From the IMG/VR virus record IMGVR_UViG_3300023202_000205, positions 115,365-179,364 of that record: a stretch of 64,000 nucleotides of DNA; one strand, given 5' to 3'. The notes beneath the pieces were generated by a model. The model saw only the letters and a list, made by a program, of their open reading frames with translations, was not told the DNA's origin and made no database searches. This DNA comes from a virus. A program made the translations under genes and the position numbers. Position 1 is the first letter of the stretch; each line of letters begins with the position of its first letter. Shown in pieces: positions 3,077 to 59,045 of the stretch.

Positions 3077-5725
3077 CTAGCTCTGGTGAGCTATGGTGGT
3101 CTCGTCGAAACCACAGATGGATTCGTGAGCTTCGCGACACGTTGTCGCGTTAGCGTCGACAGGCATGGCGTACACCCGGCCAGTCGAGTTATCTGAGCCA
3201 TACAGATATTGGTCTGCGTGCATGTCCTGAACCAGGATACGGGGAAGACCGTGGTACATGTCCGAGTCAACTAATTTAGTATCGGTATCCCCTAGATATC
3301 GCTCAATCCCGTATCGTTCGATCAATACACGACGCACCTCTGCGTTTACTTCTCCCCCAATCTCTTCGAGGGTTATCAAGTGAGGTTCCATGATCACGTG
3401 TTCTTTCACCCGCACACCATGCCAGTGATATAACGACCACCCGTCCCGCCACCTATGCGAAGGACCTTCCTCACAATGTGCGCGGTTTTGCCTGTCTGTA
3501 AAGACTACCTCGGGGTTTTCACTTACTACACAGAACTTTTCATGAAAACACTGAAAACCACCCTCAGCCGCATCCTCGTAATGTCTCCACTTCTCATACT
3601 CCGGGAGATCCAACCAACCCATCTCCCGGAAAGCTGTGATGAAAGTAATCCAACCGCCCCACGTGCGGCCTCCCTGGTAAACACGGCCCCACTTAGTGGC
3701 ACAGCCAACAGCATTCTTTATAGAAATGCCAGTCCTACAACAGAACAAAGCAACGCCGCATAACACCTGCGAAAGAGTATCCTTTGACCACTTAACCTCT
3801 TTCGCCTTACTCATTTCAGCATACACAGCTTCGCGGGTGGCGTCGCCCACAGCTTCGTGGGTGGCGTCGGACACAGCTCTGAGGGTGGCTTCGTCCACAG
3901 CTCTGTGGGTGGCGTCGGACACAGCTCTGAGGGTGGCGTCGGACACAGCTCTGAGGGTGGCAGCATACACAGCTTCGCGGGTGGCGTCGTCCACAGCTTC
4001 GCGGGTGGCGTCGTGCACAGCTCTGTGGGTGGCGTTGTGCACAGCTCTGAGGGTAGCGTCGGACACAGCTCTGTGGGTGGCTTCGATCACAACATCGCCG
4101 GTGACGGCATACACAGCTTCGCGGGTGGCTTCGTCCACAGCTCTGTGGGTGGCGGCATACACAGCTTCGCGGGTGGCTTCGTGCACAGCTCCGAGGGTGG
4201 CGTCACCCACAGCTTCGCGGGTGACGTCGTCCACAGCTCTGTAGGTGGCTAAGTCCACAGCTTCGCGGGTGGCAGCGAACACAGCTTCGCGGGTGGCGTC
4301 GTCCACAGCTTCGTAGGTGGCGGTGTCCACAGCTTCGTGGGTGGCGTCGTCCACAGCTTCGTGGGTGGCGTCGTCCACAGCTCTGAGGGTGGCGTCGTGC
4401 ACAGCTTTGCGGGTGGCGTCGCTCACAGCTCTGAGGGTGGCGTCGTGCACAGCTTCGAGGGTGGCGTCGTCCACAGCTCTGTAGGTGGCTAAGTCCACAG
4501 CTCTGAGGGTGGCGTTGTGCACAGCTTCATGGGTGGCGTTGTGCACAGCTTCGCCGGTGGCGTCGTTCACAGCTCTGAGGGTGGCGATGTCCACAGCTTC
4601 GAGGGTGGCGTCGTGCACAGCTCTGTAGGTGGCGTTGTGCACAGCTATGCGGGTGGCGTCGTCCACAGCTTCTTGGGTGGCGTCGCCCACAGCTTCGTGG
4701 GTGGCTTCGTGCACAGCTTCGCGGGTGGCGTCGTGCACAGCTCTGTGGGTGGCGTTGTGCACAGCTCTGAGGGTAGCGTCGGACACAGCTCTGTGGGTGG
4801 CGTCGTCCACAGCTCTGCGGGTAGCGTCGGACACAGCTCTGTGGGTGGCGAAGTGCACAGCTCTGAGGGTGGCGTCGTCCACAGCTCTGCGGATGGCGAT
4901 GTGCACAGCTTCGCGGGTGGCGTCGCCCACAGCGTCGGACACAGCTTCGCGGGTGGCGTCGTCCACAGCTCTGTGGGTGGCAGCGAACACAGCTCTGAGG
5001 GTGGCAGCGAACACAGCTTCGCGGGTGGCGGTGTCCACAGCTCCGAGGGTGGCGTCGTCCACAGCTTCGTAGGTGGCGTCGCCCACAGCTTCGTGGGTGG
5101 CGGCATACACAGCTTCGCGGGTGGCTTCGTCCACAGCTCTGTGGGTGGCGGCATACACAGCTTCGCGGGTGGCGTCGGACACAGCTCTGAGGGTGGCGTC
5201 GGACACAGCTCTGAGGGTGGCAGCGAACACAGCTTCGCGGGTGGTGGCGTCCACAGCTTCGTGGATGGCTTCGTGCACAGCTTCGTGGGTGGCGTCGTCC
5301 ACAGCTCTGTAGGTGGCTAAGTCCACAGCTCTGAGGGTGGCGTTGTGCACAGCTTCATGGGTGGCGTTGTGCACAGCTTCGCCGGTGGCGTCGTTCACAG
5401 CTCTGAGGGTGGCGTCGTGCACAGCTTCGAGGGTGGTGTCGTGCACAGCATCGCGGGTGGAAGGCCTCGGCATAGACTTAGAGGACTCCTGCCCCTGACG
5501 ATACCACCACAAGGCAGCCGTACCATAAACCAATGCCATCTGCAGGGGGCTATCAACAATCACTACTTTCGGTTCCGATAGTCCTGCAGATTCGTATAAC
5601 CCTCGAATACCGCTGATAACGCGGTCCCGATCACAACGCTCGGTAGAGCGCGTATGTTCGATCCACTTTTCTGTATGTTTCTTCAGGTTCTCGTAGTCCT
5701 GTTCCGTTAAGTCAAGGTGCAGCAT
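3077..5725 (-). CDS. DUF6745-domain protein with very long 8-aa repeat tract
   Basis: C-terminal HCEEGPSHRWRDGWSLYHWHGVRV...NAEVRRVLIERYG; AAGGAG RBS before ATG 5725 (track start 5803). Confidence 0.75.
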   Translation of the reverse strand: MLHLDLTEQDYENLKKHTEKWIEHTRSTERCDRDRVISGIRGLYESAGLSEPKVVIVDSPLQMALVYGTAALWWYRQGQESSKSMPRPSTRDAVHDTTLEAVHDATLRAVNDATGEAVHNATHEAVHNATLRAVDLATYRAVDDATHEAVHEAIHEAVDATTREAVFAATLRAVSDATLRAVSDATREAVYAATHRAVDEATREAVYAATHEAVGDATYEAVDDATLGAVDTATREAVFAATLRAVFAATHRAVDDATREAVSDAVGDATREAVHIAIRRAVDDATLRAVHFATHRAVSDATRRAVDDATHRAVSDATLRAVHNATHRAVHDATREAVHEATHEAVGDATQEAVDDATRIAVHNATYRAVHDATLEAVDIATLRAVNDATGEAVHNATHEAVHNATLRAVDLATYRAVDDATLEAVHDATLRAVSDATRKAVHDATLRAVDDATHEAVDDATHEAVDTATYEAVDDATREAVFAATREAVDLATYRAVDDVTREAVGDATLGAVHEATREAVYAATHRAVDEATREAVYAVTGDVVIEATHRAVSDATLRAVHNATHRAVHDATREAVDDATREAVYAATLRAVSDATLRAVSDATHRAVDEATLRAVSDATHEAVGDATREAVYAEMSKAKEVKWSKDTLSQVLCGVALFCCRTGISIKNAVGCATKWGRVYQGGRTWGGWITFITAFREMGWLDLPEYEKWRHYEDAAEGGFQCFHEKFCVVSENPEVVFTDRQNRAHCEEGPSHRWRDGWSLYHWHGVRVKEHVIMEPHLITLEEIGGEVNAEVRRVLIERYGIERYLGDTDTKLVDSDMYHGLPRILVQDMHADQYLYGSDNSTGRVYAMPVDANATTCREAHESICGFDETTIAHQS
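3818..5460. repeat. coding minisatellite, 24-bp unit, about 68 copies
   Basis: recurring cacagct....gggtggc every 24 nt; encodes AT(H/L/R/Y)(E/R)AVxx. Confidence 0.97.
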
Positions 5726-10372: not shown

Positions 10373-10408
10373 GTCACAGATACCAAGCCGCTGAACGGGC
10401 ATAGCGAG
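10373..10408 (-). CRISPR. solitary CRISPR repeat (34/36 match to array repeat)
   Basis: gtcacagataccaagccgctgaacgggcatagcgag; no neighbouring repeat. Confidence 0.9.
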
Positions 10409-11027: not shown

Positions 11028-11666
11028 CTACCAATCAAGCTGTTCAAGCTGTTTAACGTAGCAATACTCCATACAGCTAGGCTCCCTATACTCCAGCGGA
11101 GCAGCTTGCTTCACCCGCGTTACAACGTTTATGAGCGACTTTCTCAGGGCAACACCTACGTGTTGCGATGCTATTGATTTTACAATACCCAACGGAAATA
11201 GGTCCATGCTGTGGTTGTCATAGCGGGGACGACAATTATCAACGAAGGGAACGAGGTTCTCAGGCATAGTCCGAAAAAGATCGATCCCGACATCAACGGC
11301 GAGCTGAGTACCAATCCAGCCCCACCCGGGCTCTAACTCCGAATCACTGGGCTGCTCCTCGTAGCCGTACTCCTTGACGATCTCGACCACTTTCTCGGCA
11401 ACCGCCTGAGCTGTGTGGGCTGACGCTTCAGAAGAAGGGATCCGCCGCCGATCGGTGACCAACCAACCGTTTATGGGGACGTCAGACAGCTGGATCTTAT
11501 ATCCTCGGAGAAAGCTGCCACAGCAATCGTCCGAGAAAAGCAGGTTACCCAACCTGCCGGGCTGGTCGGAAAAGAAGTCCTCCACAAAGACTGTGAAATC
11601 GAGATAGGGTAGGCTGATCGATAGATTTCGGACGATGATTCTGTCTTCTTGCGTGTTGGTCTCCAT
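11028..11666 (-). CDS. hypothetical protein
   Basis: 212-aa ORF in operon. Confidence 0.65.
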   Translation of the reverse strand: METNTQEDRIIVRNLSISLPYLDFTVFVEDFFSDQPGRLGNLLFSDDCCGSFLRGYKIQLSDVPINGWLVTDRRRIPSSEASAHTAQAVAEKVVEIVKEYGYEEQPSDSELEPGWGWIGTQLAVDVGIDLFRTMPENLVPFVDNCRPRYDNHSMDLFPLGIVKSIASQHVGVALRKSLINVVTRVKQAAPLEYREPSCMEYCYVKQLEQLDW

Positions 11667-11680
11667 CCGGATCTCCTCTG

Positions 11681-12424
11681 CTAGCTTTTGAGTGATTCGA
11701 GTATTTCCTGTGGTTCTGGGATCGACGAATACTCCTTGGGATACATTTTCGTGTCATAGGCCATAAGTAGCTGTCTGATCTCGTTCGACAAGGCTGCTGG
11801 AGTGTACCCGTGGGTGCCCCCTATGCCTACCTTGCCGAGGTGCCCGCGAGAACCTCTGAAACAGTGCACCGCCAAATACCCCGTCAGTCCTCCTGGGAAA
11901 ATAGACGCCTTTTTAAACAAGACGTGAATCGGGTCACGCATACAAACGTTCACAGAAGCAGCAATGCTACAATACGGATCAGCCAGTAATGCCCACCTGA
12001 GGTTGTTAAAGGGAATGTAGACCACCTCATTTAACCAAGGAACCCAAATGGGAAAGTCTTTCACTTTATCAAAATATACCTTACGTACACTGACTCCCCC
12101 AAGAAACGACAAGTTATTCCGGTCCGGGTGTAGGTACTTTCGGGAATAATCTCTTATAGCCTTCGCTGTAACACCCCTAAAAGGTATGGGTTGTGAGTTT
12201 CCCACGACCAAATCGAATAAGCGATCCCTTGAGGGAGTACCAACTAGCTCTCTGATATAGTCAACAAGGACGTCATTCAGGCCACACACGAGATCGTAAT
12301 AGGTGCTCTGGCTGGTAGATTCCGGAACCACCTCCCCTCGGGACCACGCTCTCCAAGCGTTAATGAACTCCATACCAGTACAGTAGTTGCGCGGTAGTGG
12401 CTGTTTACTGTCACTGCTCAGCAT
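11681..12424 (-). CDS. hypothetical protein, paralogue family member 3
   Basis: YCTGMEFINAWRAWSRGEVVP motif; AAGGAG RBS before ATG 12424. Confidence 0.7.
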   Translation of the reverse strand: MLSSDSKQPLPRNYCTGMEFINAWRAWSRGEVVPESTSQSTYYDLVCGLNDVLVDYIRELVGTPSRDRLFDLVVGNSQPIPFRGVTAKAIRDYSRKYLHPDRNNLSFLGGVSVRKVYFDKVKDFPIWVPWLNEVVYIPFNNLRWALLADPYCSIAASVNVCMRDPIHVLFKKASIFPGGLTGYLAVHCFRGSRGHLGKVGIGGTHGYTPAALSNEIRQLLMAYDTKMYPKEYSSIPEPQEILESLKS

Positions 12425-13130
12425 GGGGAATGAACTCCTTGGTAGAGGGAGTGGGGACTGGAGCGAAGTGCCTTCCCACACGGCTCCCCATTTCGTTCGG
12501 CCATGTCCTCCCAAAAACCGTGTCAAGCAACTCGATGGCAACACAGCGAGCTACTGGGTTGATCAGACTGTCCTCGAAACCAGGTGTTCTGACAAACGTG
12601 CGCCAGCGCTTGAGATGCTGGAACAAATGGATCGACTCGCCCAAGCTCAGGAACCACCCTCGAGATCTCAGGGATCCCGGAAACGGGTTACTTACAACAA
12701 GTACTGCATGCTTGACCACCTGTATACGGGTCCCGTCGAATACGAGCACCCCACAGGTGTTCCTAGTTTCTACACTAAATGAGCCTGCTAAACGCTTGAT
12801 CTGCTCTGGGACTTCCCCCTCAAGAAGGACCTCTATTTCCCCCATCAAGATGCTCACAGATAGTTTATCACGCACACTTCTTGTAAGACCGAACGGAGGC
12901 CTCCCTTCCCAACAAGATCCGAAAGAGTCTACCATGTCACGCCACTCGTAGTTCTTCGCTAGGAATTGACGAAAAAGACGGCAGCTCAGGTCATCGAGCC
13001 ACCTCATATCCCCCTCTCCAGGAATCCTCTCCGAGCTCGTAGGCGTAGGAACTGCCTTCCCCAAGGAATAGCAGCGCCACGCTCTTATGAATTCTGTAGG
13101 TGATGTGTAATCACTCTGTCGTGGTATCAT
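12411..13130 (-). CDS. hypothetical protein, paralogue family member 2
   Basis: YTSPTEFIRAWRCYSLGKAVP motif. Confidence 0.7.
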   Translation of the reverse strand: MIPRQSDYTSPTEFIRAWRCYSLGKAVPTPTSSERIPGEGDMRWLDDLSCRLFRQFLAKNYEWRDMVDSFGSCWEGRPPFGLTRSVRDKLSVSILMGEIEVLLEGEVPEQIKRLAGSFSVETRNTCGVLVFDGTRIQVVKHAVLVVSNPFPGSLRSRGWFLSLGESIHLFQHLKRWRTFVRTPGFEDSLINPVARCVAIELLDTVFGRTWPNEMGSRVGRHFAPVPTPSTKEFIPHAEQ

Positions 13131-13141
13131 GAGACCTCCTG

Positions 13142-14011
13142 CTACGTTTTGTAAAGCGCGCCCAGCTCAGATCCAAGCTCCCCTGGCCAGTAAGTCTCCC
13201 CGTAAATGCGATCCAAGATCTGTACAGCTAACCCACGAGCCACCCAGGTATCCGGGGTCACCCAGCCAGGGGTCTGGGTATCAATTTCTGAATCCGAATC
13301 CATAGCAAGCGTCAGTCTCTGAAGATAGAGAGGTAAGTTTACCCGTGCTAGTTCTATAAAGTAGCAGTCCGCGCAGTCACTACATCTCTCATGTGCTATC
13401 TCGAAGAAAGCAGCTCCATCAGGGAGGGGCGGCACCTCTACTACAGTTCTTATGGAAACCAACGGCATCGTTGGGCGACCCGCTACCCGTGACGTTAAAT
13501 TGAATAGCTGACATTTATCGTCGAATACCCTCACATGCCGGTCATCAAAAGAGACCTCTCTTATCGGAATACGGAAAGGGTAAGGGTCAAGCACGGGACA
13601 TTCACAGACGTCGTCTATCAGGGCGCGAATCTCCTCGTTGATATCCGGAGCGGTTGCTGAATTGTTAAGCAGGTCTTTGACTCTGCTGGTAAACCTGGCC
13701 TCAACAAACATCCGTTTATCGAGTGGTATTTCAACGATCTCCTCTATTCCCTCTCTGTGTATGAACCCCCCACCTGCGTACTCAACAGATTCTATGAATT
13801 CCTTTTCAAGGTTTGGTAGGAACTCATTTTCATAAAAGTGTCGAAAACGAGTAGGTGATTCGAAACGTAGGGGGGCGTGCATCTCCCTGTCATATTCCAT
13901 CACTGGCGGGAAAGTTGGCTGAGGGACTTCCTGACCAAGAGAGTATTTCCTCCAAGCACTGATGAACTCCATGGGAGTCTTGTAATGGGTTAGTTGTGGT
14001 TTTTCGGTCAT
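13142..14011 (-). CDS. hypothetical protein, paralogue family member 1
   Basis: YKTPMEFISAWRKYSLGQEVP motif. Confidence 0.7.
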   Translation of the reverse strand: MTEKPQLTHYKTPMEFISAWRKYSLGQEVPQPTFPPVMEYDREMHAPLRFESPTRFRHFYENEFLPNLEKEFIESVEYAGGGFIHREGIEEIVEIPLDKRMFVEARFTSRVKDLLNNSATAPDINEEIRALIDDVCECPVLDPYPFRIPIREVSFDDRHVRVFDDKCQLFNLTSRVAGRPTMPLVSIRTVVEVPPLPDGAAFFEIAHERCSDCADCYFIELARVNLPLYLQRLTLAMDSDSEIDTQTPGWVTPDTWVARGLAVQILDRIYGETYWPGELGSELGALYKT

Positions 14012-14048
14012 TGATCAGCTTCCTTACTAAGTCAGTAAGATAGTCTTC

Positions 14049-14109
14049 GTCGCAGATACCAAGCCTCTAATCGGGCATAGCGAGAGGGCTCTTATAACTC
14101 GGCCAAGGG
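14049..14109 (-). CRISPR. solitary CRISPR repeat (33/36, 14049..14084) with leader-proximal segment
   Basis: gtcgcagataccaagcctctaatcgggcatagcgag followed by agggctcttataactcggccaaggg (21/25 match to array-2 leader). Confidence 0.92.
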
Positions 14110-14112
14110 TTC

Positions 14113-14340
14113 CATCAGTCGCTCTATTAGAGCAGTAGAATAGCTCTACCAGGGGCTTCATCGGCTACTCTATTAAAGTAGTAATACGCCTTTACCAGGG
14201 GTCTCGTCAACTATCTTATTAAGGTAGTAAGACAAGCTCCAGGTGGTATGCCAGCCCCCTCTATTAGAGCAGTAAGACGGCTTTCCAGGAGTTACATCTG
14301 TTACTCTGCTAAAGTAATAGGATTACATCACCAGTATTAC
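14113..14340. repeat. five degenerate direct repeats, 45-46-bp period (iteron-like)
   Basis: core ctctattagagcagta at 14122, 14168, 14214, 14259, 14304, each followed by ccag. Confidence 0.8.
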
Positions 14341-14373
14341 GTAAACACGAGAAAGGAACCCACTAATATAGTT

Positions 14374-14518
14374 CGGGAATGTATAATTCTGCTTTTTAGC
14401 GAGAGTACTACGTAAGGAGCTTTTTTCGTATTATCAGTTTAATAGCTATTATACTATTAAAACCAACAAAAGCTCCTTACGAAGTACTCTAGCTAAAAAG
14501 CAGAATTATACATTCCCG
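14374..14518. repeat. large AT-rich inverted repeat, 51-bp arms
   Basis: 14374..14424 vs reverse complement of 14468..14518: 2 mismatches; inner tttaatag/ctattaaa stem. Confidence 0.92.
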
Positions 14519-14579
14519 TAAATGAGTTGGAGATTCACGATAAAACTGGTCCTGAGACCATGAGAATCGCCTGATACCT

Positions 14580-14697
14580 GGAAATCCCCTGGTGACTTCA
14601 CTACCTGTTTACCCGTGAATGGGATTTCCTGCCTCACTGAGAGACTTTCTTGGTGACAGAGGGTACTGGGAGGGGGTCATCAATAAAAGTCTCTCAG
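14580..14697. other. two nested hairpins, possible structured RNA
   Basis: ggaaatccc/gggatttcc with inner ttcac/gtgaa; ctgagagacttt/aaagtctctcag with inner ttggtgac/gtcatcaa. Confidence 0.4.
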
Positions 14698-14729
14698 ATT
14701 GGAAAAATCGAGTAGGATAGTAGGTCCTG

Positions 14730-14948
14730 CTACCCCGACCCGTCTGAACCGAATACCTTGCGGTAGATCCGGTCCAGGCGGTTCAGCTGGCTCTCCACGA
14801 ACCGGTGGTCCCGTCGCTTGTCCATCTCATCGATGAAGCTGATCTCACGATCCTGGAGTTGGAACTCCTCTGAAGAGAGATCGAGCAATGCATCGAGTTG
14901 GTCACGTTGTCGATCGTCAAGCGGTACACGTTTGGGAAGCACTGCCAC
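14730..14948 (-). CDS. small hypothetical protein
   Basis: 72 aa, GGAG RBS, operator upstream. Confidence 0.55.
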   Translation of the reverse strand: MAVLPKRVPLDDRQRDQLDALLDLSSEEFQLQDREISFIDEMDKRRDHRFVESQLNRLDRIYRKVFGSDGSG

Positions 14949-14972
14949 GCTGGGTCTCCTGGTGCAAACTTT

Positions 14973-14988
14973 GTGTTCGCGTGAACAC
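14973..14988. promoter_or_regulatory. palindromic operator GTGTTC-GCGT-GAACAC
   Basis: 25 nt upstream of start 14948. Confidence 0.7.
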
Positions 14989-15139
14989 TATTGAGGCGAT
15001 TGTTGTTCCTTGGCTTCTTCGGCAGCTTCGTACCAACCCTCTTTCCAATTCTTGGCACGATGTTGATCATCTGTGTGAGGGCACGAAGTAATCGACTGCC
15101 CTGCCTTGAAAGCTCGATAACCATTATTCAAGTCCTCGT

Positions 15140-49689: not shown

Positions 49690-50273
49690 GCCACAAATAC
49701 CAAGCCTCTGAGCGGGCATAGCGAGAGTGCGCAGCTTCCCGCTTCTCCCCGATCACATCCGGGTCACAGATACCAAGCCTCTGAGCGGGCATAGCGAGAG
49801 GAGGTCTGGCCGGCTTTACCGCGAGATCGTGGTGACGTCACAGATACCAAGCCTCTGAGCGGGCATAGCGGGAGACGCCCTGCATGTTGCTCGTCACAGA
49901 TACCAAGCCTCTGAGCGGGCATAGCGAGTATCAGCGGTTCATAGGCTGATTCCCGTGATGGCGAGTCACAGATACCAAGCCTCTGAGCGGGCATAGCGAG
50001 CGGCGGTAACCTACGCTGGCGTCACAGATACCAAGCCTCTGAGCGGGCATAGCGAGAACAGGATACTGTAGACGACCTCTTTCGTCACCGCTCGGGTCAC
50101 AGATACCAAGCCTCTGAGCGGGCATAGCGAGAAACTGCGGCCGGTGCTGGCAAATGCCCATCCTGTGTCACAGATACCAAGCCTCTGAGCGGGCATAGCG
50201 AGTCCCACCACGCCCGGCAGACCGAGTGCACGCATGCGTCACAGATACCAAGCCTCTGAGCGGGCATAGCGAG
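49690..50273 (-). CRISPR. CRISPR array 1: 9 repeats, 8 spacers
   Basis: 36-bp repeat CTCGCTATGCCCGCTCAGAGGCTTGGTATCTGTGAC (minus) at 49690 (degenerate), 49763, 49837, 49893, 49965, 50021, 50096, 50167, 50238; spacers 37,38,20,36,20,39,35,35. Confidence 0.98.
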
Positions 50274-51100: not shown

Positions 51101-52981
51101 TTAGGTGGTAACCTTTTCTGACTTCTTAGACTTCTTGGACTTCTTCGATTTCTTGGACTTCTTGGACTTCTTAGCCTTTTTAGCTTTCTTAGGCTCCTTC
51201 TTCTCTTCCGTACCGTTACTTTTCTTACTTTTTCGAACTTCCCCCTTGCTACGGGCAGCAGAGATGTCCACGCTATCCGTCAGCTGAGTACGGAGCATAA
51301 GTCTCAGCATTTTGCCAGTATTACGACGTTTGATAAACTCGTCAAAATCTTTCTGAGAGAGAAATCGTCGTAACAGGTTCAGCACACGGCTGTAATCCCC
51401 GCTCACCCCACAATCGCAGGGCCTCTCCTTAGTACAGTTGCCGCAGGTTTTTGCGATACCGCAAGGATTGACTTCTACGCAGGTCATAGCCTTTTTAAGT
51501 GTTTCCTCGAGATACGACACCGCCGCCAACCTCCTGTATTGGTCAGATGCCTCATCTCCGGGAGACTTACGCTCCTTGGTTCTGGAATCAGCATACCTGG
51601 CGAAGTCTGTCCAGTGGATATCGGGTATCACCACTGTGTCGTAAGTCCTCGACAACTTGGCCGCGAACTTGCGGTAGAGATCCAAGCGGTGCTCTTGAAT
51701 GTGTAACCGCTGGTTAGACGCATATTCCAGTAAGTGTTTGTCCTGAACCCTCCACTTCTCAGCTGTCACATACGCATGCTTGTCCCCTTTCCATCTGTTG
51801 TCCTTCCACTTCCAGATGACGGCTGCCAGCTGAGCTTCCGACCTCCAGTGGAAAATGGACTTCGTTGCTTCTTGGATCCACTCGGGGCCCTTGCGGAAGA
51901 ACTTGTCGAGTCGTTTACAGGTTTTATTGAACTCTTTGCGCCTGATGGATTGGAGATCTTCTTCATTATCTTTGAAGTTGATGTACTTATTCTCAAGTAG
52001 GAGATGCCCGAAATCACCATCTTCTCCAGCATAGGTTGCGACCCGTATACCGTCGTCCTGAACGGCCCACCCAGGCATTACAGCAACAACTCCGTGTCCT
52101 TTCTCCCGCTTTTCCAAAGCAGACCAGTCGTCGGTAGATAGGACCAGCTGAAGACTCCACTTCAGATTAGTACCCACCTTCTTTCCAACCAGTCGAGCAT
52201 ATTTGACCTGAGCACCGCGCGGGACGTCACGGTGAAGCTTGGTACGGAAGTTCAACCAAACGGGCTCTTTACCCACACTCCCGATCCGTATCCGGCTCAT
52301 ACGCCAACGGTCCCCACTGGTGGGGCACCTTTCGTCGTTTACTTGCAGGAGTCGGCTGATCCGCTTACCGCTACCATCGAAAGCGTCGTAGAAGTTACCC
52401 CCGTTCTGTACCTGTACGGTGATGCTGTCCTCACCGCGATAACGAACGAACTCGGGGGGAGCTCCCGATTTGTCATCTACGCGAGATTGTGAAATCGCGT
52501 TCTTGAGATGCCAGAACAGGCTGCTTTCGTTATAAAGAGCCTTACACTTTTGCCTGAACTCATCCTCGAGCTTACTCTGACACTTCTCCCATTTCTTGGT
52601 AGGGTAGCACTTCTTCTTTTTGAATTCACTGAGTTTCCTATACTTACCATTTCTGAGCTGTTTGGCTTTCTTGATCTGCTCCTTAAGGAGCTTGTCGATC
52701 TCACGCGTCCTCAGTTTGGCACGCTGCTTTCTGGAAAGATCGATGAGGCTATCAACCTCTTTTTCGGCTTCCTCAACGTCTTTTAAGAGGGGGATGATAG
52801 CTGGAAATAGTTGGCGAAGCTTGTCATGGATAGCCGTCCTCCGCTCTCTTTCGATAGCTACAAGACTATTCCTGTAATGGTTCATTTCTCGGAAGATAGC
52901 TATCGCTTCCTCCTCATCTTCTTTAAACAACTTAGCCCCGAATTTATAAACCTTCGAAGGCTTGCTATCTCGCCCAAACAT
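51101..52981 (-). CDS. cas12m: type V-M (V-U1) CRISPR effector Cas12m-like, RuvC-inactivated, Lys-rich C-terminal tail
   Basis: MFG....VYKFG start, RNSLVAIE, LFW, F.RYRG..SITVQ, RIRIGS....PVW...LHR.VP, W.S..QLA...WK, R.DLYR.FAA; RuvC-I VAVMPGW (D to M), RuvC-II VVIPD, RuvC-III GDY...NL; flanked by arrays. Confidence 0.88.
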   Translation of the reverse strand: MFGRDSKPSKVYKFGAKLFKEDEEEAIAIFREMNHYRNSLVAIERERRTAIHDKLRQLFPAIIPLLKDVEEAEKEVDSLIDLSRKQRAKLRTREIDKLLKEQIKKAKQLRNGKYRKLSEFKKKKCYPTKKWEKCQSKLEDEFRQKCKALYNESSLFWHLKNAISQSRVDDKSGAPPEFVRYRGEDSITVQVQNGGNFYDAFDGSGKRISRLLQVNDERCPTSGDRWRMSRIRIGSVGKEPVWLNFRTKLHRDVPRGAQVKYARLVGKKVGTNLKWSLQLVLSTDDWSALEKREKGHGVVAVMPGWAVQDDGIRVATYAGEDGDFGHLLLENKYINFKDNEEDLQSIRRKEFNKTCKRLDKFFRKGPEWIQEATKSIFHWRSEAQLAAVIWKWKDNRWKGDKHAYVTAEKWRVQDKHLLEYASNQRLHIQEHRLDLYRKFAAKLSRTYDTVVIPDIHWTDFARYADSRTKERKSPGDEASDQYRRLAAVSYLEETLKKAMTCVEVNPCGIAKTCGNCTKERPCDCGVSGDYSRVLNLLRRFLSQKDFDEFIKRRNTGKMLRLMLRTQLTDSVDISAARSKGEVRKSKKSNGTEEKKEPKKAKKAKKSKKSKKSKKSKKSKKSEKVTT

Positions 52982-53070
52982 GTTAACTCCTTGGTTGTTA
53001 TTGCTGATTGTGGTTTCATTATCTGGTTGGTCGGTACGACCCCGAACTGGATGCCGTCGTCAACAGATAC

Positions 53071-53106
53071 GTCGCAGATACCAAGCCTCTGAGCGGGCAT
53101 AGCAAG
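53071..53106 (-). CRISPR. solitary CRISPR repeat (34/36) upstream of cas12m
   Basis: gtcgcagataccaagcctctgagcgggcatagcaag, 89 nt before cas12m ATG; partial copy gtcaacagatac at 53059..53070. Confidence 0.92.
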
Positions 53107-54808: not shown

Positions 54809-56611
54809 ATGGCGGTCGCGGCTCCTACGAAGCTGGAAGAGACACTCAAGGAAGTGCGAAACCGGGCCGTCAAAAATGGTGCTTCGCTTGCTCCAGCACT
54901 TCCCCTCATACTCCAACTGAGGGGGCAGCCCTACTCACTGAACTGGTCTCACTTCATGTTTGAGCCCATGTTCAAGTTTATAGGTATGCCTCGTCGAATG
55001 ATGTTGCTTTGTGGCCGCCAGGTCTCCAAAAGCACCTCGATGGCAGCTAGTCAGATACTCCGGGCAGCTATCCAGCCCAACTACAACATCCTTACCGTAA
55101 TGCCGCTTTACGAGCAGGTTCGCAAATTCAGCCAAAACTATGTGCGCCCTTTCATAACGACGAGTGGGGTAAGGAATCGTCTGGTCAGTGAACTGGGAAC
55201 GGACTCGGTCCTTCAACGGCAGATAGGGCCACTACAACACAACAGTTCCTTGTTCTACAGCTACAGTTCTGGCGACCCCAACCGTGTCCGTGGTATCCCT
55301 GCAGACGAAACCGACTTTGACGAGATCCAGGATTTGGACCACGCTGACCTCCCGATCATTGAATCGTGTATGGGTGCTTCGCGGTTCAAGATTGTTCGAC
55401 TAACGGGAACCCCTAAGACGTTTGACAACACGGCCAACCTGCTCTGGGAAGATAGCTCCCAGGCACATTGGCACATCCCCTGTTGTTGTGGCAAAGAGAA
55501 TAAAGCTGCCGTTGATGGTGATCTAATTCAGATGATCGGAGATGGTGGTAAACGACCGGATGGCTCTGTGCGTACACTGATCTGCGCTAACTGTGGCCGA
55601 GACCTCAATAGCCGCATTGGGTATTATGTCCACGACTACCCAGATCGCCGGTCGATCTTTCCCGGCTATCACGCCCCTCAGCCTATCCTCCCCATGCACT
55701 ATGAGTCGCCGCCGGACTGGCATGTCATCTTGGAAACGATGCATGAGAAGGCGACTTACATCTTCTACAACGAGGTCCTCGGAGAGTCCTATGATGCGGG
55801 CTCAAAGGTCATCACCTACGAGGAGCTGCATAAGGCAGCGCAGGTAACACCTTGTGAGCCGAAGGACATGCTGCCTTCTCGGTACATTGCTACTATGGTC
55901 GGGATCGACTGGGGTGGTCGTGGTAAGGAAAAGACGTCCGATACCGACGACTTTATCTCGAACACCGCCTTTGCCGTAGCAGGAATGCGGTCCGACGGTG
56001 TCATAGAGATACCCTGGCTTCACAAAGTACCCTATGTGGTAGATATGAGCCACGAGTCACATATGGCCGTCAACGTAGCTGCTAGCAGTAGGTCGGACTA
56101 CATCGCGATGGATTATGGCGGTCAGGGAAATGTGCAGGAACAGCAAGTGCGTGCCTGGGGATGGCCAGCGGAACGGGTGGTTCCGTTTACTTACGCGGTG
56201 ATGGCGCCAACACGCCCCGTAGTCTACTACAACCCTCCGAAACACCGTGGTGTCCGATCCAGTTATACACTGGATAAGCCCAGGAGTATCTTGCTCCTAG
56301 CAGAGCTCCTTAAGAGAGGGTTAGTGTTACTCCCCAACTCAGATAAATACCTGAAAGACCACCTGCGTGACTTCCTCAACATCTATGAAGAGAGTATCGA
56401 GAACCCCTCCGGCTCACCTCGTCGACTCATCAAACGGATGAGTCGACGCACTGACGACGTCGTCCACGCAATCAATTTTGCCGTAATGGGCCTCTTCCAT
56501 TACACAAATAGCTGGCCTAAGATCGCCGATTCATTTGTCGAGCAGGCCATCTCGCAGATACCTTCTTCTGTCACAGATACCAAGCCTTTGAGCGGGCATA
56601 GCGCGGGATGA
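54809..56611 (+). CDS. terL: terminase large subunit, GpA-like
   Basis: GRQVSKST Walker A, RVRGI.AD...FDEIQD, GTPKT, CCCG/CANC zinc module, FYNEVLGESY, GIDWG nuclease motif. Confidence 0.85.
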   Translation: MAVAAPTKLEETLKEVRNRAVKNGASLAPALPLILQLRGQPYSLNWSHFMFEPMFKFIGMPRRMMLLCGRQVSKSTSMAASQILRAAIQPNYNILTVMPLYEQVRKFSQNYVRPFITTSGVRNRLVSELGTDSVLQRQIGPLQHNSSLFYSYSSGDPNRVRGIPADETDFDEIQDLDHADLPIIESCMGASRFKIVRLTGTPKTFDNTANLLWEDSSQAHWHIPCCCGKENKAAVDGDLIQMIGDGGKRPDGSVRTLICANCGRDLNSRIGYYVHDYPDRRSIFPGYHAPQPILPMHYESPPDWHVILETMHEKATYIFYNEVLGESYDAGSKVITYEELHKAAQVTPCEPKDMLPSRYIATMVGIDWGGRGKEKTSDTDDFISNTAFAVAGMRSDGVIEIPWLHKVPYVVDMSHESHMAVNVAASSRSDYIAMDYGGQGNVQEQQVRAWGWPAERVVPFTYAVMAPTRPVVYYNPPKHRGVRSSYTLDKPRSILLLAELLKRGLVLLPNSDKYLKDHLRDFLNIYEESIENPSGSPRRLIKRMSRRTDDVVHAINFAVMGLFHYTNSWPKIADSFVEQAISQIPSSVTDTKPLSGHSAG

Positions 56612-57464
56612 TGACGGCCCCTCAGTCACAGATACCAAGCCTCTGAGCGGGCATAGCGAGGCGGCCATGACCCCGAGGAACAGCCGTGGCCCTCCGAGTC
56701 ACAGATACCAAGCCTCTGAGCGGGCATAGCGAGCCGATTGCGATGGGGTGGACCCGGTCTCTTTCGAGTTGTCACAGATACCAAGCCTCTGAGCGGGCAT
56801 AGCGGGGGCCTTGCTACCGGGTTTCCCTTCAGACTACCCTTCGGTCACAGATACCAAGCCTCTGAGCGGGCATAGCGAGACCATAGCCACCTCGGCAAGG
56901 CCCTGGATACCGCCGCGTCACAGATACCAAGCCTCTGAGCGGGCATAGCGAGCGCTTTTGGATCGCCTGGCGTACGCCCTGCTTCTGGTCACAGATACCA
57001 AGCCTCTGAGCGGGCATAGCGAGGGCGCTCTCACACAGCGAGGAGCAGAGCCATGGCCACACTGTCACAGATACCAAGCCTCTGAGCGGGCATAGCGAGT
57101 GCCATCGAATCCCCGGTAGCGGACACCGTTCACTTGCGTCACAGATACCAAGCCTCTGAGCGGGCATAGCGAGACAACTGTTGGCGGCGAGCACGACCGG
57201 ATGCCCAGGGTCACAGATACCAAGCCTCTGAGCGGGCATAGCGGGAGCTCGGCCGCCTCGGATTGGGTCAGTAGATGATCATGTCACAGATACCAAGCCT
57301 CTGAGCGGGCATAGCGAGTTCTCGTCGTCGGTACGCTCGCCACGGAGCGCCGCCGTCACAGATACCAAGCCTCTGAGCGGGCATAGCGAGTGCGACACCT
57401 TTCGCGGCACCGTGGCCAGCGAGATCTAGTCACAGATACCAAGCCTCTGAGCGGGCATAGCGAG
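56570..57464 (-). CRISPR. CRISPR array 2: 13 repeats, 12 spacers
   Basis: repeats at 56570 (degenerate), 56625, 56698, 56771, 56844, 56917, 56988, 57064, 57138, 57210, 57283, 57355, 57429; spacers 19,37,37,37,37,35,40,38,36,37,36,38. Confidence 0.98.
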
Positions 57465-57636
57465 AGGGCCTTTATAACTCGGCTCAGGGAACCGTGTTAT
57501 ATCGCTCTCTGCGAGCGCCCTCATCTCAGCTGATCCTAGCACCTCTTAGATCACTGCAATATCTCCATCTAAACCATTATCAGCAAAGAACATCGAGCGC
57601 CTCCCGTAATTTCAGAACCAAGAAGGCGCTCGAAAC
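57465..57636 (-). promoter_or_regulatory. CRISPR leader 2 (172 bp)
   Basis: 11 mismatches to leader 1 by manual alignment. Confidence 0.9.
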
Positions 57637-57641
57637 AGATG

Positions 57642-59045
57642 CTAGAGTAGCGGTTTTATCTGGTCGTTACAGTACACCAGAGACGGATCCCAGTCTTTAA
57701 TCAGCAACCCCTCTAAGGTTCGTGCACGTGACAACGCCACATACGCCAGGCCGTGGCGTGACGCATTATCGGGAAACTTACCCAGAGAAGACATATCAAA
57801 CCAGGCCTTGCCGACAGTCATACCTTGTGCCTTATGGACTGTACAGGCGTACCCGAGCCGTACCGGGAACCCCGATACCCTGTGTTGTACGTAGCGACCC
57901 ATTGGGTCCTCCACATCCCTCTCCATCATTATTACCCGCACATCCTTGTTGGTTCTGTCGAGCAACACGCGCAGTTCGCTGATCCTATAAGGACGCCCAT
58001 TCTCAGCATGCTCGGCGATGCACGATTCTAGATCCCTCCCGTCTTCTGCCAGGGCTCCCGTAAGCGTACCTGTATCGCCGTTTACGTAAGCTCCTCCGGG
58101 TTTGGAGTTGACTGTAAGGAGCACTCGACAGCCCACCGCTAACGGCTCCCCATGCCCGAAGGGTGCTGCCTCAAGGACTTTCTGTCGAAACCGCTCCTCT
58201 CTGGGTGAGGCTTCTCGCTTCTTTTTGGGACGCCGATCTTCGAAAAATGCGTAAATCACGAAGTGACCAGTGCCGGTGTCCGACACGTGTCGCCATAACC
58301 GAGCGTTGTTGTACGCATCCGTTTTGGCGTTTGTGGCATACATTCGGATATATCGGTCATCGTCAGGCGGTACCTGGCAGGTCCGTTCTTGAAAGACCTC
58401 GTCTACCTGGTCGTCCACCGTGCCTTCTCGGACCTTGTTGAGGACCTCCATGAAGACTCCCTCACCCTGACGATGGTTCTCAGTCAGTTTGATGAATTCG
58501 TAGTCATCTAGGATTTCCGAATCCAGAATGAGGTCGTCCTTGACCGGGCTCGCCTGGGCCCAATCCCCAACCAGGAGGAGTTTCTTGCGGTACTCGCGGG
58601 CTGTTTTGATGATCCGATTCCCCATGTGTTTCCCGATCATGGATGCTTCATCTATGATGATGTCATCCGGAATGTCGGTCATGATCTTCTCGAGATAACT
58701 GTAAGACCAAATGGTCCAATCACGACGAGAGAAGCAGAACAGCATATCAACAGTAGACCCACCAACGTGCATCGCCGCTTTGCCAGTCGTTGCGGATACC
58801 TTCCAGCTGCCGCGTGCCTTCAGGGCATTGATGATCGTGCTTTTACCAGACCCGGCCTGACCTGTGAGGATAACGACCGGCTTCTCAGTACTTACGATCA
58901 ACTCGATTGCGTCCTTCTGTTCCTGGGAGAGCGTGACCCCTTCTCCAGGAACGGTACTATTCGTAGTAGCTCCTTCCTTCTGTTGGGTATGTGTAGGGGC
59001 GCCCGTTCCCTCATCTGAAGGCAGGGCGGTGTGTTCGGTGCTCAT
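57642..59045 (-). CDS. Pif1/RecD-like SF1B helicase
   Basis: TGQAGSGKST, IIDEASMI, VGDWAQASPV, LTENHRQ, GYACTVHKAQGMT, YVALSRAR. Confidence 0.92.
   Translation of the reverse strand: MSTEHTALPSDEGTGAPTHTQQKEGATTNSTVPGEGVTLSQEQKDAIELIVSTEKPVVILTGQAGSGKSTIINALKARGSWKVSATTGKAAMHVGGSTVDMLFCFSRRDWTIWSYSYLEKIMTDIPDDIIIDEASMIGKHMGNRIIKTAREYRKKLLLVGDWAQASPVKDDLILDSEILDDYEFIKLTENHRQGEGVFMEVLNKVREGTVDDQVDEVFQERTCQVPPDDDRYIRMYATNAKTDAYNNARLWRHVSDTGTGHFVIYAFFEDRRPKKKREASPREERFRQKVLEAAPFGHGEPLAVGCRVLLTVNSKPGGAYVNGDTGTLTGALAEDGRDLESCIAEHAENGRPYRISELRVLLDRTNKDVRVIMMERDVEDPMGRYVQHRVSGFPVRLGYACTVHKAQGMTVGKAWFDMSSLGKFPDNASRHGLAYVALSRARTLEGLLIKDWDPSLVYCNDQIKPLL

What the first reader, a model, noticed from the sequence alone, without database searches (positions are those of the whole stretch)
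14012..14109. Leader-repeat-37 nt-ATG: a mini-array whose spacer is a ribosome-binding site
Seen: the repeat retains a 21/25 copy of the leader-proximal sequence of the real arrays. The distance from repeat end to the ATG at 14011 is exactly 37 nt, the modal spacer length, and this segment contains the RBS (AAGGAAG). Inference: a third leader-repeat unit was co-opted as promoter/5' UTR. Cas12m loading would leave the effector next to the RBS, or the site could still acquire spacers.
Basis: partly seen in the sequence, partly recalled or inferred. Interest (0 to 1): 0.78.

Follow-up and report, generated by a model that had tools for sequence, protein, structure and literature searches.

The report
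Lone Cas12m repeat inserted before gene
A phage that carries its own DNA-binding CRISPR protein (Cas12m) has a 55-base copy of "leader end plus one CRISPR repeat" inserted into a row of regulatory sites 37 bases before a gene, so that gene's message probably carries a Cas12m binding handle, but no experiment shows that it is used.

Summary
Window 14049-14084 (- strand) is a 33/36 copy of the phage's type V-M repeat. It is preceded by leader-end sequence (21/25) and followed 37 nt later by the ATG of an orphan 289-aa gene, with AAGGAAG as the ribosome-binding site.

It is not a mini-array, because there is no second repeat. The 37 nt are not a spacer. Removing exactly 55 nt (14049-14103: 19 nt of leader end plus the repeat) restores the 45-46-nt period of six dyad-symmetric sites. 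The "spacer" is therefore native control-region sequence, and its match to the modal spacer length is coincidence.

The unit is one of six solitary repeats in this 179-kb phage. All six are in sense orientation, 14-89 nt before a start codon. The phage has no cas1 or cas2.

The Cas12m-binding stem and most of the pseudoknot survive in this copy.

- **Best reading (about 0.4):** a Cas12m handle in the operon's mRNA leader.
- **Main rival (about 0.33):** a neutral ectopic copy.

No target for the pseudo-guide exists in the phage genome. No relatives or RNA data were available. Earlier notes of this scan describe similar solitary Cas12m repeats in other phages.

The parts
14085..14103 (-). 19-nt copy of the leader end (GCCGAGTTATAAGAGCCCT), the left part of the 55-nt insertion
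   Evidence: It matches the leader of solitary unit S2 at 19/19 and the array leaders at 17/19. The BLAST alignment to leader A2 plus repeat starts at window 14103. The periodicity scan puts the deletion boundary at 14103.
14049..14084 (-). Solitary 36-nt type V-M (Cas12m) repeat, unit S5. In RNA sense it carries substitutions C14A, C16U and U33C.
   Evidence: The covariance model gives 50 bits. The stem and 4 of 6 pseudoknot pairs are kept.
14012..14048 (-). 37-nt native 5' UTR segment, not a spacer. It holds 6 nt of the unit-5 tail (14043-14048), unit 6 (14019-14042, dyad 14023-14039) and the Shine-Dalgarno AAGGAAG (14019-14025).
   Evidence: Unit 6 belongs to the same motif family as the five upstream units (D2 and I3). 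Deleting 14049-14103 restores the 45-nt spacing. An RNA hairpin of -7.7 kcal/mol pairs guide positions 3-16 with the Shine-Dalgarno region.
14104..14334 (-). Five phased 45-46-nt units (U5 to U1), each with a dyad-symmetric motif of about 22 nt of the form TnTTACTnCTnTAATAGAGnAG
   Evidence: family D1, spacings 46, 46, 45, 45. The motif is unique in the 179-kb genome. The dyads are shown.
14374..14518 (.). Inverted repeat with 51-nt arms (96% complementary) around an AT-rich centre. Each arm carries TGTATAAT, an extended -10-like box, and the two boxes face each other.
   Evidence: (I1) and the sequence. Only generic hairpin matches in Rfam, all below threshold.
13142..14011 (-). Orphan 289-aa gene, the first of three to four paralogues (12411-13130, 11681-12544, 11028-11666)
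   Evidence: No homologue among 5.8 billion proteins. No Pfam, NCBIfam or PHROG family. Paralogue matches at E 8e-9 and 9e-7.
10373..10408 (-). Solitary repeat S4, 70 nt before a 45-aa RHH-like gene. Together with S5 it brackets the paralogue operon.
53071..53106 (-). Solitary repeat S6, 89 nt before the cas12m start codon
51101..52981 (-). cas12m (626 aa), the effector whose repeat is copied in S5
   Evidence: Match to PDB 23vw_A, Cas12m, E 2.3e-40
56570..57700 (-). CRISPR array A2 (13 repeats) with its leader, the reference used for leader and repeat

Best explanation
Anatomy (shown): a 55-nt fragment, made of the last 19 nt of a CRISPR leader plus one 36-nt repeat of the phage's own Cas12m system, was inserted in sense orientation between the fifth and sixth unit of a phased row of six dyad-symmetric sites. 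This row lies in the 718-nt AT-rich control region in front of an orphan paralogue operon. The 37 nt up to the ATG are native sequence. They form the sixth site, which overlaps the ribosome-binding site.

Function (inferred, about 0.4): the unit is transcribed as part of the operon's long mRNA leader. A candidate extended -10 box lies about 415 nt upstream of the repeat. The transcribed unit folds into the Cas12m scaffold (stem plus pseudoknot), and Cas12m binds it and cuts just upstream of it, as it does in pre-crRNA. The effector then sits on the new 5' end of the mRNA. It holds the first 17-20 nt, which would otherwise pair with the ribosome-binding site. Translation or stability of the operon mRNA would thereby be coupled to the Cas12m level. 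The direction of the effect cannot be predicted: steric block or release of the ribosome-binding site are both possible. S5 would be one of six such handles in this phage, one of which precedes cas12m itself.
For: Insertion anatomy:
- An unbiased scan of deletion start and length finds that removing 14049-14103 (55 nt) best restores the unit period (score 19.5 against 11.5 with no deletion).
- BLAST independently starts the leader homology at 14103.

The family of solitary repeats:
- There are six solitary repeats and three arrays, all on the strand that carries about 80% of the genes. Each solitary repeat lies 14-89 nt before a start codon with a Shine-Dalgarno sequence.
- A covariance-model search finds exactly these six and no others.

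The scaffold:
- The stem plus pseudoknot model was taken from the Cas12m2 structure (PMC10442227). It holds across five Cas12m systems and eight solitary units: 90.6% of cells are paired, against at most 46% in the slid controls, with covariation at pair 20:30.
- Across the six solitary repeats, positions 6-13 and 20-32 never vary. All 14 changes fall in the disordered 5' end, the 5' strand of the pseudoknot, or positions 33 and 36.
- S5 keeps the A and C at positions -2 and -1; in Cas12m2 C(-1) is read base-specifically.

Other support:
- Cas12m processes pre-crRNA upstream of the scaffold and stays bound (PMC11013384 and PMC10442227).
- No terminator lies between the repeat and the ATG.
- An unrelated Cas12m phage (G001) also carries dispersed solitary repeats.
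Against:
- No relative carries this locus, so conservation cannot be judged.
- S5 is the lowest-scoring solitary repeat. It loses the C15-G35 pseudoknot pair and turns C17-G33 into a wobble pair.
- Intergenic position near a start codon is what a neutral insertion would also show in a genome that is 92% coding and mostly one-stranded.
- In phage G001 the two clear solitary repeats are antisense to their neighbouring genes, so a position in a sense-strand mRNA leader is not a general rule.
- Close Cas12m relatives L001 and L002 show no solitary repeats within the 10 kb examined.
Confidence: 0.4

Rival explanations
1. Neutral ectopic copy. The 55-nt fragment was dropped into non-coding DNA by illegitimate or microhomology-guided recombination. 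The leader has CCCTGAGCCGAG and the native unit has CCCTTGG. The copy has no function and is slowly decaying.
For: - S5 has three substitutions, two of them in the pseudoknot strand, and the lowest model score among the solitary repeats.
- Only 19 nt of leader are present.
- Shmakov et al. report an excess of degraded ectopic repeat copies in genomes with active CRISPR systems and propose dynamic gain and loss (PMC10120712).
- The solitary repeats of G001 have no consistent orientation relative to genes.
- The left junction lies in a stretch shared by leader ends and native units.
Against: - All six solitary repeats share orientation and an invariant scaffold core of 21 positions with no change among 14 substitutions.
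- The right junction falls exactly at the repeat's 3' end, which random recombination does not predict.
- S5 scores above the degenerate terminal repeats of the arrays: 50 bits against 43.5-44.7.
Confidence: 0.33
2. crRNA-like guide acting on DNA, in the manner of CreR, CreA or viral Cracr RNAs. The unit gives a scaffold plus about 20-nt guide (GAAGACUAUCUUACUGAC...) that sends Cas12m to a DNA target. A special variant: in the reconstructed uninserted allele this guide sequence is preceded by TTG, which fits the 5'-TTN PAM of Cas12m2. The RNA could then silence the control region of sibling phages that lack the insertion, while its own copy is protected because the repeat replaces the PAM.
For: - Cas12m silences by binding DNA (PMC11013384, PMC10442227).
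- The reconstructed junction reads CCCTTG followed by GAAGAC.
- One genuine array spacer matches the phage's own genome at 36/36, so sequences of this phage or its siblings are within the system's targeting range.
- crlRNA-based regulation is established for types I and V-A (PMC10120712; bioRxiv 10.1101/2023.03.10.532045 and 10.1101/2024.10.29.618823).
Against: - No second site in the 179-kb genome matches the S5 pseudo-guide. The best matches have 5 mismatches in 20 with no seed.
- The upstream units match only about 10 of 18 positions, and the seed is mismatched.
- The PAM of this Cas12m is unknown. No protospacers were found in reference phages.
- TTN at the junction has a 1-in-16 chance, and the other solitary repeats do not show it consistently.
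- No uninserted sibling was found.
- Nothing marks a 3' end for a short RNA before the ORF.
Confidence: 0.12
3. RNA decoy (Racr-like). The solitary repeats soak up Cas12m of a host or a rival phage that uses a similar repeat.
For: Solitary repeat units in phages act as RNA anti-CRISPRs (PMC10651486). This phage has six copies.
Against: - The repeats match the phage's own arrays, and the phage encodes the effector. A decoy would therefore inhibit its own system.
- There is no own promoter and terminator framing a small RNA at S5.
- The host is unknown, so a matching host system cannot be checked.
Confidence: 0.07
4. One reading: a functional third leader-repeat unit that serves as the operon's promoter, or as a live site of spacer acquisition.
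For: A TATAAG box lies 7 nt before the repeat, as in the real leaders (TATAAA). The leader-repeat junction is intact.
Against: - The -35-like ATAACA of the real leaders is absent, and no sigma-70-type promoter was found in 13900-14900.
- Only 19 of about 200 leader nucleotides are present.
- The genome encodes no Cas1 or Cas2.
- The site holds no spacer and no second repeat.
Confidence: 0.05

Closest known systems
Viral solitary repeat units / RNA anti-CRISPRs (Racr; Camara-Wilpert et al. 2023, PMC10651486)
   Same: A single CRISPR repeat without an array, carried by a phage, that is expected to fold into the Cas-binding handle.
   Different: Racrs mimic the host's repeats, are made as small RNAs and inhibit host Cas proteins. 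Here the repeat is that of the phage's own Cas12m system. It lies inside an mRNA leader 37 nt before a start codon, and no small-RNA boundaries are visible.
crRNA-like regulatory RNAs: CreR/CreA, repeat-like elements next to cas12a, viral Cracr (PMC10120712; bioRxiv 10.1101/2023.03.10.532045; 10.1101/2024.10.29.618823)
   Same: Stand-alone, partly degenerate repeats near cas and cargo genes. One unit in this phage (S6) lies just upstream of the effector gene, as in many V-A loci.
   Different: Those elements carry a pseudo-spacer with partial complementarity to a promoter. The S5 pseudo-guide has no such target in the phage genome. None has been described for type V-M in the papers read.
Engineered Cas-processed 5' UTRs
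   Same: A repeat hairpin in a leader lets a Cas RNase cut off the upstream RNA and define the mRNA 5' end.
   Different: Those are synthetic constructs. A natural use of this kind by a phage Cas12m has not been shown.
Iteron or operator arrays next to AT-rich palindromes (plasmid and phage origins, partition sites)
   Same: The host site of the insertion has six phased dyad-symmetric sites. The last one overlaps the start region of the downstream gene. A 51-nt-arm inverted repeat with an AT-rich centre lies beside them, in a replication-gene neighbourhood (DNA polymerase A, RuvB-like).
   Different: No initiator, ParB-like or ParR-like protein could be recognised. The downstream proteins are orphans.

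Membership tests
CRISPR array / mini-array | At least two repeats separated by a spacer | tested here: not met
   Only one repeat copy is present. The 36 nt starting at the ATG show no repeat similarity. The regex search (up to 8 mismatches) and the covariance model find no second copy nearby.
CRISPR array / mini-array | The segment after the repeat is an acquired, unique spacer | tested here: not met
   The 37 nt belong to the local phased unit family. Deleting 55 nt restores the period.
Functional leader-repeat acquisition site | Adaptation genes (cas1, cas2) are available | tested here: not met
   No PF01867 or PF09827 match in the 96%-complete genome, while the control genomes gave matches. 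Host genes could not be tested.
Solitary repeat unit (SRU) of a type V-M system | A single copy of the cognate repeat outside any array | tested here: met
   33/36 identity, 50 bits. It lies 35.6 kb from the nearest array in the window.
Solitary repeat unit (SRU) of a type V-M system | The Cas12m scaffold fold (stem plus pseudoknot, A and C at -2 and -1) is retained | tested here: inconclusive
   3/3 stem pairs, 4/6 pseudoknot pairs (own consensus 5/6), AC kept (by homology with PMC10442227). Binding was not measured.
RNA anti-CRISPR (Racr) | Made as a separate small RNA with its own promoter and end | tested here: not met
   No promoter or terminator consensus around the unit. The ORF follows after 37 nt.
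RNA anti-CRISPR (Racr) | Mimics the repeat of the host's CRISPR system | not testable with these tools
   The host is unknown. The repeat equals the phage's own arrays.
crRNA-like regulator (CreR / CreA / Cracr) | A pseudo-spacer partially complementary to a promoter, next to a PAM | tested here: not met
   No seed-containing match in the 179-kb genome. Host targets are not testable.
Iteron-type origin or operator array (the host site) | Three or more phased direct repeats beside an AT-rich region | tested here: met
   Six units at 45-46 nt once the insertion is removed. The adjacent region is 43% GC and holds the inverted repeat.
Iteron-type origin or operator array (the host site) | A cognate binding protein or initiator is identified | tested here: not met
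   The neighbouring proteins have no recognisable family or fold.

The most novel reading that the evidence does not exclude
The phage uses its nuclease-poor Cas12m as an RNA-binding regulator as well as a DNA binder. Six of its own mRNAs, including those for cas12m, two small DNA-binding proteins and the orphan paralogue operon, carry a crRNA handle in the leader.

At S5, a bound Cas12m would hold the strand that otherwise sequesters the ribosome-binding site, which would switch translation.

A still bolder variant follows from the insertion lying exactly between a TTG and the sequence that becomes the guide. The unit would then also encode a guide against siblings that lack the insertion, while its own genome stays immune. 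This is the logic of a homing element, but without cutting.
Probability: 0.22. Interest if true: 0.8.

Novelty: new variant of a known kind. Interest (0 to 1): 0.5.

Why it matters
Solitary CRISPR repeats in phages are known as decoys against host Cas proteins. Stand-alone repeats next to cas genes are known as guides for self-repression. A phage that tags its own messages with the handle of its own Cas12m would be a third use: a Cas effector read-out on mRNA leaders.

This locus offers a clean test case. The insertion is precisely delimited at 55 nt, the uninserted state can be reconstructed, and the handle sits one effector footprint away from a hairpin that hides the ribosome-binding site.

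If the unit turns out to be inert, it still documents how repeat copies spread. It is a leader-end plus repeat block with one junction in a shared motif and the other exactly at the repeat end.

Tried and rejected
- **Relatives of the locus:** none were found.
  - BLAST of 13000-15000 against reference phages gave nothing.
  - The 289-aa protein gave nothing in viral contigs or in 5.8 billion proteins.
  - The exact and degenerate repeat cores gave nothing in viral contigs or metagenome contigs.
  - The scan's own index of look-alike stretches gave nothing.
- **Function of the 289-aa protein:** Pfam, NCBIfam, PHROGs and the ESM Atlas gave nothing. The Atlas model has pLDDT 0.32.
- **Targets of the six pseudo-guides in the phage genome:** only chance-level matches.
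- **Protospacers of arrays A1 and A2 in reference phages, to learn the PAM:** none found.
- **Genome-wide promoter motif:** I considered that the 45-nt units might be one. They are unique to this region. A short CCCTG...GAG..TAT motif is shared only with leader ends.
- **GC skew as evidence for an origin at this site:** the skew is uniformly negative with no switch.
- **The S4-S5 bracketed operon as a foreign cassette:** its GC of 51.6% is at the 12th percentile and not distinctive.
- **A repeat followed by GGAG and ATG in phage G001:** it looked like a parallel case, but the ORF is only 14 codons long, so I dropped it.
- **Known RNA families:** Rfam gave only sub-threshold generic hairpin matches to the inverted repeat.
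- **Further diverged repeat copies:** none beyond the six.

Full report
**Context**

The window is the last 64 kb of a 179,364-bp phage genome. The genome is terminally redundant, CheckV rates it 96% complete, and its GC content is 54%. About 80% of its long ORFs lie on the - strand.

The 626-aa ORF at 51101-52981 (-) is a Cas12m. It matches PDB 23vw_A at E 2.3e-40 and matches Cas12m2 more weakly.

The cognate 36-nt repeat forms three arrays:
- window 49690-50273;
- window 56570-57464;
- genome 104661-104981.

The three arrays have leaders that share 141-208 nt.

The same repeat also occurs six times alone, always on the - strand. I call these copies S1-S6:
- S1, S2 and S3 lie at genome 36523, 105721 and 111419.
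- S4, S5 and S6 lie at window 10373, 14049 and 53071.

A covariance model built from five Cas12m systems and eight solitary units finds exactly these 33 copies. The next best hit has E about 0.7.

**The observation**

S5 (14049-14084) differs from the consensus at three positions. In RNA sense these are C14A, C16U and U33C. The 25 nt on its leader side match array leader A2 at 21/25. The ATG of a 289-aa ORF follows after 37 nt, with AAGGAAG placed 7 nt before it.

The start codon is credible. Residues 2-33 of the protein are conserved in two downstream paralogues, at E 8e-9 and 9e-7. A 33/36 match is far beyond chance in 128 kb of sequence. The description is therefore correct.

**What the 37 nt are**

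The 718-nt gap between 14012 and 14729 is the second largest non-coding stretch of the genome, at 43% GC. It contains:
- a weak terminator-like hairpin (14547-14560);
- an inverted repeat with 51-nt arms and an AT-rich centre (14374-14518), whose arms each carry TGTATAAT;
- five direct units of 45-46 nt (14103-14334), each with a dyad-symmetric motif of about 22 nt.

A sixth copy of the motif lies at 14019-14042, inside the supposed spacer, where it overlaps the Shine-Dalgarno sequence (families D2 and I3). Its distance from unit 5 is 100 nt instead of 45.

I scanned all deletions (60 start points, lengths 0-89) for the one that makes the unit 5 to unit 6 interval most like the other four intervals. 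The optimum is a 55-nt deletion of 14049-14103, with score 19.5 against 11.5 for no deletion. Neighbouring solutions lie within 1-2 nt.

The deleted block is GCCGAGTTATAAGAGCCCT plus the 36-nt repeat. A BLAST alignment of leader A2 plus repeat against the genome independently begins its match at window 14103. The 19 nt are identical to the leader of S2 and carry the same two differences from the array leaders, AGAG instead of AAGG.

The additional similarity further upstream (CCCTTGG against CCCTGAG) belongs to the native unit. The same short motif occurs in other units and in leader ends, and it may have served as microhomology for the insertion.

The conclusion is that S5 is a 55-nt insertion into a pre-existing phased array, and the 37 nt are native control sequence. 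Their equality with the modal spacer length is a coincidence of where the insertion landed. Eight of 24 spacers are 37 nt long and the range is 19-40 nt. The six solitary repeats lie 14, 69, about 26, 70, 37 and 89 nt from the next start codon.

**Is the handle intact?**

In the Cas12m2 structure the 36-nt scaffold has a disordered 5' end, a short stem and a pseudoknot that pairs the loop with the 3' end. C(-1) is read base-specifically and A(-2) pairs with G(-23) (PMC10442227).

I transferred this model to an alignment of the repeats of five Cas12m systems plus eight solitary units. In it, 90.6% of cells pair, against at most 46% when the partners are slid by 1-3 columns. Pair 20:30 covaries as A-U, C-G, G-C and U-G. 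The set is small and its members are related, so this supports the fold but does not prove it.

S5 keeps all three stem pairs and the terminal AC. It keeps four of six pseudoknot pairs, where the phage's own consensus has five. One of the four is now a G-U wobble pair.

Across S1-S6, positions 6-13 and 20-32 never change. All 14 differences lie in the disordered 5' end, the 5' strand of the pseudoknot, or positions 33 and 36. This pattern is what purifying selection on a Cas12m-binding RNA would leave. However, I chose the regions after seeing the data, and concerted copying from the arrays could mimic the pattern.

**What it probably does**

Cas12m enzymes cut pre-crRNA upstream of the scaffold and remain bound. 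About 17 nt of guide pair with a target (PMC11013384 and PMC10442227).

No terminator separates S5 from the ORF, and no promoter consensus lies next to it. The nearest candidate start is the extended -10 box at about 14506-14513. The simplest expectation is therefore a long leader that carries the handle.

A bound Cas12m would occupy the scaffold and guide positions 1 to about 20. The Shine-Dalgarno sequence lies at guide positions 24-30. In the free RNA, guide positions 3-16 pair with positions 20-32, giving a -7.7 kcal/mol hairpin that includes the Shine-Dalgarno sequence. Binding could therefore either hinder the ribosome sterically or free the Shine-Dalgarno sequence. I cannot predict which.

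The other five units fit the same picture:
- S1 has its Shine-Dalgarno sequence at guide positions 5-9.
- S2 precedes an HTH_17 gene.
- S4 precedes an RHH-like gene.
- S6 precedes cas12m.

All of these steps are inference. I put the mRNA-handle reading at about 0.4.

**Rival readings**

*Neutral ectopic copy (about 0.33).* Shmakov et al. describe many degraded ectopic repeat copies in CRISPR-bearing genomes. S5 is the most diverged of the six units. In a densely coding, largely one-stranded genome, any tolerated insertion ends up near a start codon. The unrelated Cas12m phage G001 has a 28-repeat array and two clear solitary repeats that are antisense to their neighbouring genes.

*crRNA-like DNA guide (about 0.12).* The pseudo-guide has no partner in the phage genome. 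One detail is worth noting. In the reconstructed uninserted allele the guide sequence is preceded by TTG, which fits the 5'-TTN PAM of Cas12m2. The RNA could therefore recognise siblings that lack the insertion, while its own locus lacks the PAM. That agreement has a 1-in-16 chance. The PAM of this enzyme is unknown, and no sibling was found.

*Decoy (about 0.07) and promoter or live acquisition site (about 0.05).* The decoy reading is disfavoured because the repeat is the phage's own. The promoter reading is disfavoured because the -35-like element is missing. The acquisition reading is disfavoured because cas1 and cas2 are absent.

**Relation to what is known**

Phage solitary repeats are known as RNA anti-CRISPRs (PMC10651486). 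crRNA-like regulators are also known (PMC10120712; bioRxiv 10.1101/2023.03.10.532045 and 10.1101/2024.10.29.618823). None of the papers I read describes either kind of element for type V-M.

A 2026 preprint reports a Cas12m with an array of eight spacers in a myxophage and calls it the first phage Cas12m. The passages I read do not mention solitary repeats (10.64898/2026.09.14.751636).

Earlier notes of this scan describe dispersed solitary Cas12m repeats at gene boundaries in several other phages. I did not check those notes, and I count them as leads only.

S5 is thus a well-delimited member of a variant of a known kind. Its own function remains open.

Noticed in passing
window 57319-57354 (array A2, second spacer) and genome 19251-19286, which lies outside the window: This spacer matches the phage's own genome at 36/36, on the sense strand near codon 22 of a 218-aa ORF. 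That ORF follows a gene whose translation looked to me like sigma-factor region 4; I ran no family search on it. The 5' flank reads GAGTTGGC. Possible readings are self-regulation by a non-cutting Cas12m, or a relic of targeting a sibling phage.
   Followed up: partly
window 53059-53106 (S6, upstream of cas12m) and L039:4951-4999 (phage G001): The sequence right after S6 (GTATCTGTTGAC) nearly repeats the last 11 nt of the repeat itself (GTATCTGCGAC). A solitary repeat in the unrelated Cas12m phage G001 is followed by an exact 13-nt duplicate of its own 3' end. The recurrence suggests either a shared way of origin or a guide aimed at repeat ends.
   Followed up: partly
window 14374-14518: Inverted repeat with 51-nt arms (96% complementary) and an AT-rich centre. 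Each arm carries TGTATAAT, so two extended -10-like boxes face each other. It lies next to the six phased sites and within 15 kb of the DNA polymerase A and RuvB-like genes. It is a candidate origin or control hub.
   Followed up: partly
window 14066-14072: The two loop substitutions of S5 turn CTCAGAG into ATTAGAG. That is 6/7 identical to the AATAGAG half-site of the neighbouring dyad units. This could be chance, or drift towards a binding half-site.
   Followed up: no
window 10373-10408 and 14049-14084: S4 and S5 are direct repeats that bracket the whole four-gene paralogue operon (about 3.6 kb). In the same way, S6 and the first repeat of array A1 bracket cas12m plus one ORF, and S2 and array A3 bracket an HTH gene. 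Genes enclosed between repeats may reflect recombination at repeats.
   Followed up: partly
window 553, 9601, 14970, 24264, 32978, 42227, 53497: A 21-nt palindrome (ATTGTGTTCGCGCGAACACAG and variants) recurs about every 9 kb, mostly between genes. It is probably an operator or promoter-associated site of the phage.
   Followed up: no
window 49873-49892, 50001-50020, 56606-56624: Three spacers are only 19-20 nt long, among spacers of 30-40 nt.
   Followed up: no
window 3727-5500: About 63 tandem copies of a 24-nt period, presumably a repetitive protein.
   Followed up: no
L040/L041 (G001:38352-43233): An IMG/VR phage fragment (53.9 kb) carries a Cas12m homologue (29% identity), a decaying array of about 28 repeats, a degenerate mini-array with 14-35-nt spacers, and two solitary repeats on the opposite strand at gene junctions.
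   Followed up: partly
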